Of a stretch of DNA of 64,000 nucleotides, positions 48,531 through 49,790 are shown piece by piece (the first letter of the stretch is position 1; each line of letters opens with the position of its first letter). The notes beneath the pieces are model-generated. The model was not told the origin of the DNA. It searched no databases and was given only the letters and a program-made list of their open reading frames with translations. Both the position numbers and the translations under genes were made by a program. The stretch covers positions 196,106,001-196,170,000 of the forward strand of contig OZ024742.1 in the NCBI GenBank assembly GCA_964016885.1, read 5' to 3'. Source of the stretch: Eledone cirrhosa. Its lineage: Eukaryota.

Positions 48531-48706
48531 GCATTTGAAACAAAGGATGCTCTTTGTTTGGTGTTGACGCTGATGAATGGTGGTGATCTCAAGTTCCATA
48601 TCCACAACATGGGACATCCTGGTTTTGAAGAGGAACGGGCCATTTTTTATGCTGCTGAGATCAGTTGTGGTTTAGAAGATCTGCATTCAGAGAACATAGT
48701 GTACAG
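48516..48706 (+). CDS. GRK5: GRK exon, kinase subdomains IV-VIa, 191 bp
   Basis: [63 protein letters not shown](R); in frame with both neighbouring exons. Confidence 0.96.
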
Positions 48707-49790
48707 GTAAATATTGTTATTGTTCAAAGGTAAATTTTTGTCATTGCACACAGGTAATATAACTGTACAGGTAATATAACATTGTGTGTAGGTAAATATT
48801 ATTATTCAAAGGTTAATATAATATAATGTACAGGTAAATATACTATAGTGTATAGAAGTAAATATATAGTGTATAGAAGTAAATATATAGTATACACAGG
48901 TAAATATATTGTAGTGTACAGGTAAATGTATTATAGTGTACACAGGTAAATATGATATAGTTTACTCGGGTAAATGTAATATAGTGTACAGGTAAATATA
49001 ATATAGTGTACACAGGTAAATATATTATAGTATACAGGTAGATATATTATAGTGTACACAGGTAAATATACTATAGTGTACACAGGTAAATATAATATAG
49101 TGTATACAGGTAAATATAATATAGTGTATACAGGTAAATATGACATAGTGTGCAGGTAAATATATTATAGTGTACTGGTAAGTATATATTGTGTAGGTAA
49201 ATTTGATATAGTTTACTCAGGTAAATATAATATAGTGTACAGGTAAATATATTATAGGGTACACAACACAGGTAAATATATTATAGTGTATACAGGTAAA
49301 AATAATGATTTCTAGTATATGCACAAGGCCAGTAATTTTGGGGGAGGGGAAAGTCGATTAAATCGACCCCCAGTATGGTACTGGTGCTTTATTTTATCGA
49401 CCCCGTAAGGATGAATGGCAAAGTTAACCTCGGCGAGATTTGAACTCAGACCATAAAGGGCCGTAACTCTATGCTCCAAAGCATGGTGTCCGACCCTCTA
49501 CCGATACTACCAGTAGTGTACACGGGTAAATATATTATAGTATACACAGGTAAATATGATATAGTGTACAGGTAAATATATTATAGTGTACAGATATTAT
49601 ATTATGCAGGTAAATATAATAGAGTATACACATGTAATGATATAATGTAGTGTACAGGTAAATATAGTATAGTGTGTAGGTAAATGTAATATAGTGTACA
49701 TGTAAATATACTATAGTGTACTCAGGTGTACAGGTAAATATATTATAGTGTACACTGGTAAATACAATATAGTGTACACGTAAATATATT
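48696..49790 (+). repeat. Degenerate 22-24-bp tandem repeat whose unit contains the GRK splice donor, about 35 copies, interrupted by a SINE
   Basis: ATAGTGTACAG|GTAAATAT at the true exon end recurs, for example exactly at 48981 and 49561. Confidence 0.9.
49305..49513 (-). mobile_element. SINE of the second family inserted in the donor array
   Basis: Reverse complement of the 33790-type element. Confidence 0.8.

What the first reader, a model, noticed from the sequence alone, without database searches (positions are those of the whole stretch)
48696..49790. The same exon's 5' splice site is also tandemly amplified
ATAGTGTACAG|GTAAATAT recurs roughly 35 times (manual count). Any distal donor would include the TAA at 48708-48710 and truncate the kinase just before the catalytic Asp. 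The array is more degenerate than the acceptor array and contains a SINE, so it is probably older. Independent amplification of both boundaries of one exon, and of no other exon here, is striking. It could strengthen exon definition through U1/U2AF loading, act as decoys, or provide CAG|GTAAAT recursive sites.
Basis: partly seen in the sequence, partly recalled or inferred. Interest (0 to 1): 0.75.

Follow-up and report, generated by a model that had tools for sequence, protein, structure and literature searches.

The report
Splice-donor minisatellite in octopus kinase gene
In a receptor-kinase gene of an octopus-type animal, a 22-base piece spanning the end of one exon and its splice signal is repeated 37 more times into the next intron, but a likely messenger-RNA contig uses only the first, genuine signal, so this is likely a harmless example of a repeat type already known from human, lancelet and chicken genes.

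Summary
The array is real and locally born: 38 donor-like units of 17-38 nt (mostly 22-24), counting the true donor of a GRK4/5/6-type exon (48516-48706), split by a SINE-like insertion. The quoted 19-mer occurs 4 times, not 35; CAG|GTAAAT occurs 20 times. The in-frame TAA is confirmed. One spliced contig from the same organism joins 48706 directly to 50257, so the first donor is used. One relative has no array after the donor; a closer one has SINE-tail-like sequence at intron +11. In 265 sampled exons of this genome, junction copies were no commoner at donors (4 of 242) than at intronic sites (1.75-3%), and other donor arrays exist, one also with a SINE inside. No recursive-site motif is present (0 of 27). 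This is a new member of a known class (human F7 intron 7 VNTR, amphioxus 'mirages', chicken exon stuttering); this scan has noted it repeatedly on other DNA, including this genome. Residual oddity: two long arrays on one exon are expected only about 0.1 times per genome if independent. Interest low.

The parts
48516..48706 (+). 191-nt coding exon of a GRK4/5/6-type kinase gene (VNLAYAFE...ENIVYR), ending in phase 2
   Evidence: covered from 48532 to 48706 by spliced contig X4
48693..48714 (+). Founding 22-nt unit: last 14 exon bases plus first 8 intron bases; true donor GT at 48707-48708
   Evidence: donor use shown by X4 loose end
48708..48710 (+). In-frame TAA that any distal donor or intron retention would bring into the message
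48715..49306 (+). Left part of the donor array, 26 copies; the first 8 are the most worn (70% pairwise against 81% for the inner ones)
49307..49513 (-). SINE-like dispersed repeat, about 12 nt short at its 5' end compared with the copy near 55.7 kb, inserted inside one unit with no clear target duplication
   Evidence: SINE label is by recalled anatomy, no library search
49514..49790 (+). Right part of the donor array, 11 copies, as alike to the left part (78%) as left units are to each other (77%)
49832..50140 (.). Unrelated high-copy dispersed repeat in the rest of the intron
   Evidence: depth in the thousands to hundreds of thousands in all four runs
50257..50294 (+). Next exon (R/DLKPENILLDDF), holding the catalytic Asp
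46680..48531 (+). Separate 38-nt acceptor-spanning array (about 49 copies) at the other end of the same exon

Best explanation
The last 14 bases of a GRK exon and the first 8 bases of the intron are repeated 37 more times inside the intron, likely as a neutral minisatellite that arose by local duplication, and a likely messenger-RNA contig splices at the first donor only. Shown: local origin, unit structure, SINE-like insertion inside a unit, the direct 48706-50257 junction in one contig, and absence of the same arrangement in two relatives. Inferred: birth by slippage or repair at the short AACATA/AATATT likeness that flanks the unit; growth and decay by unequal exchange; survival only in the intronic direction because the same event inside the exon would be removed by selection; choice of the upstream-most donor by exon definition or 5'-to-3' scanning as in F7; removal of any leaky distal product by nonsense-mediated decay because of the TAA. 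The second array at the acceptor is a separate event in a stretch rich in minisatellites.
For: Unit unique to the locus. X4 contig (1666 nt, depth 29.7) leaves the exon at 48706 and its next 30 letters equal 50257-50286; it was the only X4 contig laid there. Organism C (170 of 179 bases alike) diverges after GTAA into unrelated sequence; organism B (183 of 185 alike) follows to intron +10 and then reads SINE-tail-like letters. Junction copies within 300 nt: 4 of 242 donors and 2 of 151 acceptors (paralogues, one event) against 97 of 3339 donor-like intronic sites, 3.0% of 449,385 intronic positions or 1.75% after removing dispersed families (expected 4.2, P=1.0); within 1000 nt 6 of 242 against 5.6 expected. 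Other donor arrays in the sample: L111 (with a SINE inside) and L075. Literature: only the upstream-most donor is used in F7, lamin B2 and PDGF (PMC1557585); mirages do not disturb splicing (PMC3087553, PMC3902484).
Against: Two arrays of 15 or more copies on one exon are expected only 0.08-0.13 times per genome under independence and uniform density (150,000-250,000 exons is my assumption), so coincidence needs local clustering or selection from many scanned windows. X4 is not on record as RNA, is a single assembled contig, and contigs drop rare variants; stop-carrying products would also be depleted, so leaky use is not excluded (in IFI6-16 and CBS two further donors are used). The exon sample has low power for long arrays (0 of 242 donors with 3 or more copies within 300 nt; upper 95% bound 1.5%) and splice sites were called by my own weight matrix. 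B has single-copy-like depth on 49700-49765, so part of the array may be older than the A/B split.
Confidence: 0.8

Rival explanations
1. A coupled mutational process: something about this exon (a repair or replication hot spot, or a first array destabilising its neighbourhood) seeded duplications at both borders. The arrays are still without function but are not independent.
For: Both-ends expectation for long arrays is only about 0.1 per genome; the arrays lie 161 nt apart; the window holds about 6 long non-microsatellite arrays in 64 kb, about three times the sampled density of 48 ends in 769 kb; neither relative's contig breaks near the acceptor (125 and 154 nt into the intron, against 22 nt in the own run), a weak hint that the acceptor array is also recent.
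Against: Units are unrelated beyond the CAG|GT core (P=0.45) and differ in period and wear; no excess at single borders; no exon of the 265 had junction copies at both ends.
Confidence: 0.1
2. The array is a splicing rheostat: distal donors are used at low or regulated rates, bring in the TAA and send the message to decay, so copy number tunes kinase dose.
For: 19 copies match the true donor from -3 to +6; TAA is in frame; further donors are used in human IFI6-16 and CBS (PMC1557585 introduction); contigs cannot show rare or degraded forms.
Against: Only the direct junction was seen; arrangement differs in both relatives; no drift towards a stronger donor (1 of 37 with GTAAGT); F7 experiments found identical downstream sites silent.
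Confidence: 0.06
3. The copies work as recursive (ratchet) sites or as U1-loading enhancers of exon definition.
For: 27 YAG|GT motifs lie in the array; a recursive step at CAG|GTAAAT would rebuild the same donor and leave no trace in mature RNA; recursive sites occur in shorter human introns too (PMC10156609).
Against: 0 of 27 have the Y5+N0-4YAGGT motif used in that paper; the longest pyrimidine run in the 16 nt upstream is 1-3 nt in 27 of 28 AG|GT copies against 5-10 nt at 9 of the 10 real acceptors; the intron is 1550 nt; a relative lacks the array.
Confidence: 0.04

Closest known systems
Human F7 intron 7 37-bp VNTR and the cases listed with it (IFI6-16, CBS, lamin B2, PDGF); Borensztajn et al. 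2006, PMC1557585 (seen: abstract, introduction, discussion)
   Same: First unit spans the exon-intron border; identical donors follow in the intron; the upstream-most donor is used.
   Different: Shorter unit (22-24 nt), more copies (38 against 5-9 in F7), more worn, split by a SINE-like element, and a second array sits at the exon's acceptor; length polymorphism not tested.
Amphioxus 'mirage' minisatellites (Adh3, troponin C, globins BflGb6/BflGb9, PGBD5); PMC3087553 and PMC3902484 (seen: passages); the original Adh3 paper was not held and is known to me only through these
   Same: Tandem copies of intron-exon borders at either end, units of 10-160 nt, worn edge units, normal splicing.
   Different: Mollusc rather than lancelet; both ends of one exon, which the passages I saw do not describe (they give both kinds in different genes and two neighbouring exons in PGBD5).
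Exon stuttering on chicken dot chromosomes; Hron et al. 2026, PMC12954441 (seen: passages; supplements not read)
   Same: Strictly local expansions whose source lies at the exon border, 1-44 copies, repeat-rich introns, different arrays in close relatives.
   Different: There it is tied to GC-rich dot chromosomes; here the sequence is AT-rich on a 379-Mb contig, and the exon part (14 nt) is below their 20-nt minimum.
Recursive splice sites (PMC10156609; seen: passages)
   Same: YAG|GT juxtaposition.
   Different: No pyrimidine tract, 22-24 nt spacing, short intron, no lariat evidence.

Membership tests
Border-spanning minisatellite (F7 type / mirage) | Head-to-tail array whose terminal unit spans a real exon-intron border | tested here: met
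   junction used in contig X4
Border-spanning minisatellite (F7 type / mirage) | Unit is locally born, not a dispersed satellite | tested here: met
   4 of 4 and 6 of 6 genome-wide exact matches lie in this array
Border-spanning minisatellite (F7 type / mirage) | Copies keep splice-signal sequence | tested here: met
   20 of 38 units read CAG|GTAAAT
Border-spanning minisatellite (F7 type / mirage) | Normal splicing at the authentic site | tested here: met
   one spliced contig, run kind not on record; shows presence, not exclusive use
Border-spanning minisatellite (F7 type / mirage) | Length variation between alleles or individuals | not testable with these tools
Recursive splice site | Pyrimidine tract directly before YAG|GT (Y5+N0-4YAGGT) | tested here: not met
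   0 of 27
Recursive splice site | Lariat or saw-tooth evidence in total RNA | not testable with these tools
   no raw RNA run listed
Avian exon stuttering | Direct tandem copies of part of a coding exon in the adjacent intron | tested here: met
Avian exon stuttering | GC-rich dot-chromosome setting | tested here: not met
   AT-rich sequence at 196 Mb of a 379-Mb contig
GRK4/5/6 subfamily (host gene) | Sequence closest to GRK5-type kinases with an RGS domain | tested here: met
   97% to Octopus sinensis GRK5 (P0002; PF00069, PF00615), ten exons mapped in order

The most novel reading that the evidence does not exclude
Long arrays at both ends of one exon are not a coincidence: a process tied to the exon (splicing-coupled or repair-coupled duplication) amplifies both borders, or the pair is kept because about 49 spare acceptors and 37 spare donors let copy number tune how much GRK message is sent to decay. 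The locus would then be a natural experiment in innermost-pair exon definition.
Probability: 0.08. Interest if true: 0.6.

Novelty: new member of a known kind. Interest (0 to 1): 0.17.

Why it matters
As it stands it adds a cephalopod case, and a rough first rate (about 2% of donors carry at least one junction copy, no more than intronic background), to a described class. It is a handy test substrate for how a spliceosome picks the innermost pair among dozens of identical signals. It would matter more if double-sided cases proved to be in excess, since that would point to a mutational link between exon borders and repeat birth.

Tried and rejected
Genome count of triple AGGTAAGT patterns (3113 against 431 for the reversed control): uninformative, since the listed rows were AGGT-type microsatellites and one very long array. 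No RNA holder listed; this is no evidence on expression. Second read-laying (49700-50330) was swamped by a high-copy repeat, its tables were cut, and it gave no readable junction at 50257; X4 and organism C had no cover on 49700-49809, which proves nothing. TRF-based border scan missed worn junction copies and was replaced by the 14-mer test. RNA fold of 48650-49300: z = -1.79 on 20 shuffles, minimum and centroid structures disagree, no stable hairpin that would hide the decoys. ARAGORN found no tRNA in the SINE-like element. Dispersed-satellite origin rejected. Common origin of the two units rejected. Whether B's SINE is the same insertion as the one at 49307 (left array lost in B) or a separate one could not be settled: 3 of 20 tail letters differ against about 6.5% intron divergence. 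First translation used a wrong frame.

Full report
Host gene. The window is G000:C3:196106001-196170000 in a 3.0-Gb assembly. The exon at 48516-48706 translates to VNLAYAFE...ENIVYR and is 97% identical to Octopus sinensis GRK5 (P0002); ten exons of that protein map in order on the plus strand. The animal is therefore likely an octopod. The intron after the exon is 1550 nt and the next exon starts at 50257.

Observation. The intron begins with a head-to-tail array. Cutting at GT cores gives 38 units including the true donor, 26 copies before and 11 after a 207-nt insertion. The founding unit is 48693-48714: 14 exon and 8 intron bases. The quoted 19-mer occurs 4 times and CAG|GTAAAT in 20 of 38 units; units were found by anchoring on GT, so the GT itself is conserved by construction. 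The 19-mer has 4 exact matches in the whole genome and a common longer variant 6, all inside this array, so the unit was born here. TAA at 48708-48710 is in frame and stops the protein one residue before the catalytic Asp. Donor units are 78% alike pairwise, acceptor units 88%. The insertion is a minus-strand dispersed repeat, 79-88% alike to nine other places in the window; I call it SINE-like from recalled anatomy, without a library search. It splits one unit, and left and right units are as alike (78%) as left units among themselves (77%), so the array likely predates it. Only 2 of the 20 exon borders in the window carry junction copies, both on this exon. The two units share only CAG|GT (P=0.45), and the acceptor unit is also unique to the locus (29 of 29 matches).

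Which donor is used. No run was on record as RNA. Run X4 (same organism label, another sample of the same study, small contig set) gave one contig of 1666 nt that covers 48532-48706 without a difference and continues with 30 letters identical to 50257-50286. It is a spliced form and so likely comes from RNA. It shows that the first donor is used; it cannot show that the others are never used, because contigs drop rare forms and stop-carrying messages would likely be degraded.

Relatives. Organism C (9 differences in 179) leaves the window's sequence after GTAA and reads unrelated sequence; organism B (2 in 185) follows to intron +10 and then reads letters like the SINE tail at 49307, with no donor units between. 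B has depth of 9-17 on 49700-49765, like its single-copy contigs, so it may keep the right part (its records there were not listed). Either B lost the left 26 units or it has its own SINE at +11; I could not tell. Both relatives' contigs run 125 and 154 nt into the upstream intron where the own run stops after 22 nt, a weak hint that they lack a uniform acceptor array. Each relative is one run, and only 20-30 letters beyond the match were visible.

Genome-wide test. I took exon hits of three Pfam families: 90 of 138 kinase hits (the 30 best and 18 with long open frames were left out as largely intronless), 103 of 107 kinesin hits (4 long ones left out) and 72 of 72 myosin hits: 265 exons in 126 regions. 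Splice sites were called with my own weight matrices (recalled frequencies). A border counted if a 14-mer with at least 3 bases on each side recurred with at most one mismatch. Within 300 nt this held for 4 of 242 donors and 2 of 151 acceptors, the two being paralogues. The same test gave 97 of 3339 donor-like intronic sites, 373 of 12,673 intronic YAG sites and 3.0% of 449,385 intronic positions, or 1.75% after removing words seen in other regions (expected 4.2 of 242, P=1.0). Three or more copies: 0 of 242 against 0.35-0.55%. Within 1000 nt: 6 of 242 (8 of 261 before dropping two weak, likely miscalled donors) against 5.6 expected. So there is no sign of enrichment, with modest power. By eye, L111 (exon ending HRDLK) has a worn donor array with a SINE inside, the same anatomy as here, and L075 (exon ending TCDLK) has a run of junction copies 270-650 nt into the intron.

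The double. From TRF array ends in 769 kb of flanks, the chance that a given border lies in a terminal unit is 0.7% for any array and 0.07% for arrays of 15 or more copies; with an assumed 150,000-250,000 exons that gives 7-12 exons with arrays at both ends, but only 0.08-0.13 with two long ones. This window is about three times richer in long arrays than the sample, and it was picked from very many windows, so coincidence is credible, but local coupling is not excluded. This is the one point that counts against my reading.

Mechanism. Most likely: local duplication across the border (inferred), tolerated because copies fall in the intron (inferred), grown and worn by ordinary minisatellite turnover and hit by a SINE (anatomy shown, order inferred), with the upstream-most donor chosen (shown in one contig; mechanism inferred from F7). 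Recursive use is unlikely: 0 of 27 YAG|GT sites have the minimal motif of PMC10156609. Selection for U1 binding is unlikely: 1 of 37 copies has GTAAGT and 9 have lost the AG.

What is known. PMC1557585 (abstract, introduction, discussion read) describes the F7 intron 7 VNTR and four other human genes; only the first donor is used in F7, lamin B2 and PDGF, while two more are used in IFI6-16 and CBS. PMC3087553 and PMC3902484 (passages) describe amphioxus mirages at both kinds of border with normal splicing. PMC12954441 (passages) reports 236 chicken introns with exon stuttering. A search for tandem repeat + splice site + octopus + intron listed 13 of 14 papers, none on this subject by title and abstract start; a search aimed at double-sided cases listed 10 papers, of which I looked into two and found no such case in the parts seen. 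Supplements were not read and the Adh3 paper was not held, so a double-sided case may be in print. Earlier notes of this scan record the same class in many genomes and in this one; they gave me the mirage and stuttering papers and are not counted as support.

Verdict. Real, locally born, spliced normally as far as seen, not conserved in arrangement, not enriched at borders: a new member of a known class. Interest 0.17.

Noticed in passing
L111 (G000:C2, donor near 189922751, +): Kinase exon ending ...GVVHRDLK is followed by a worn array of about 38-nt units copying its donor, interrupted by a SINE of the kind seen in this window.
   Followed up: partly
L075 (G000:C1, donor near 322459184, +): MAP-kinase-like exon ending ...NTTCDLK has junction copies in a worn array that starts about 270 nt into the intron, after unique sequence.
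   Followed up: partly
L164, L167, L162 (G000:C1636, C22): Paralogous kinesin exons carry a 119-120-nt acceptor-spanning array, about 4 copies in L164 and L167; L205 shows a 72-nt tandem repeat just after the motor-domain match.
   Followed up: partly
L182, L184, L191: Short donor duplications (1-3 worn copies) after three myosin exons.
   Followed up: partly
window 46680-48531: Because the exon begins with GTG, most acceptor-array units read AG|GT, a tandem proto-splice site; some units have AG|AT instead.
   Followed up: no
window 56206-57068: Another intronic minisatellite (23 nt, about 35 copies) is also split by a SINE of the same kind, so SINE-in-array is common here.
   Followed up: no
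window 50307-50495: A worn 38-nt array begins about 13 nt after the donor of the next exon without including it; several sampled exons show the same near miss.
   Followed up: partly
G000:C1:421956689-421961937 and beyond: A long 28-30-nt array carries AG|GTAAGT in nearly every unit; whether it starts at an exon was not checked.
   Followed up: no
window 8296-10803: A 310-nt tandem array of 99% identity, about 8 copies.
   Followed up: no
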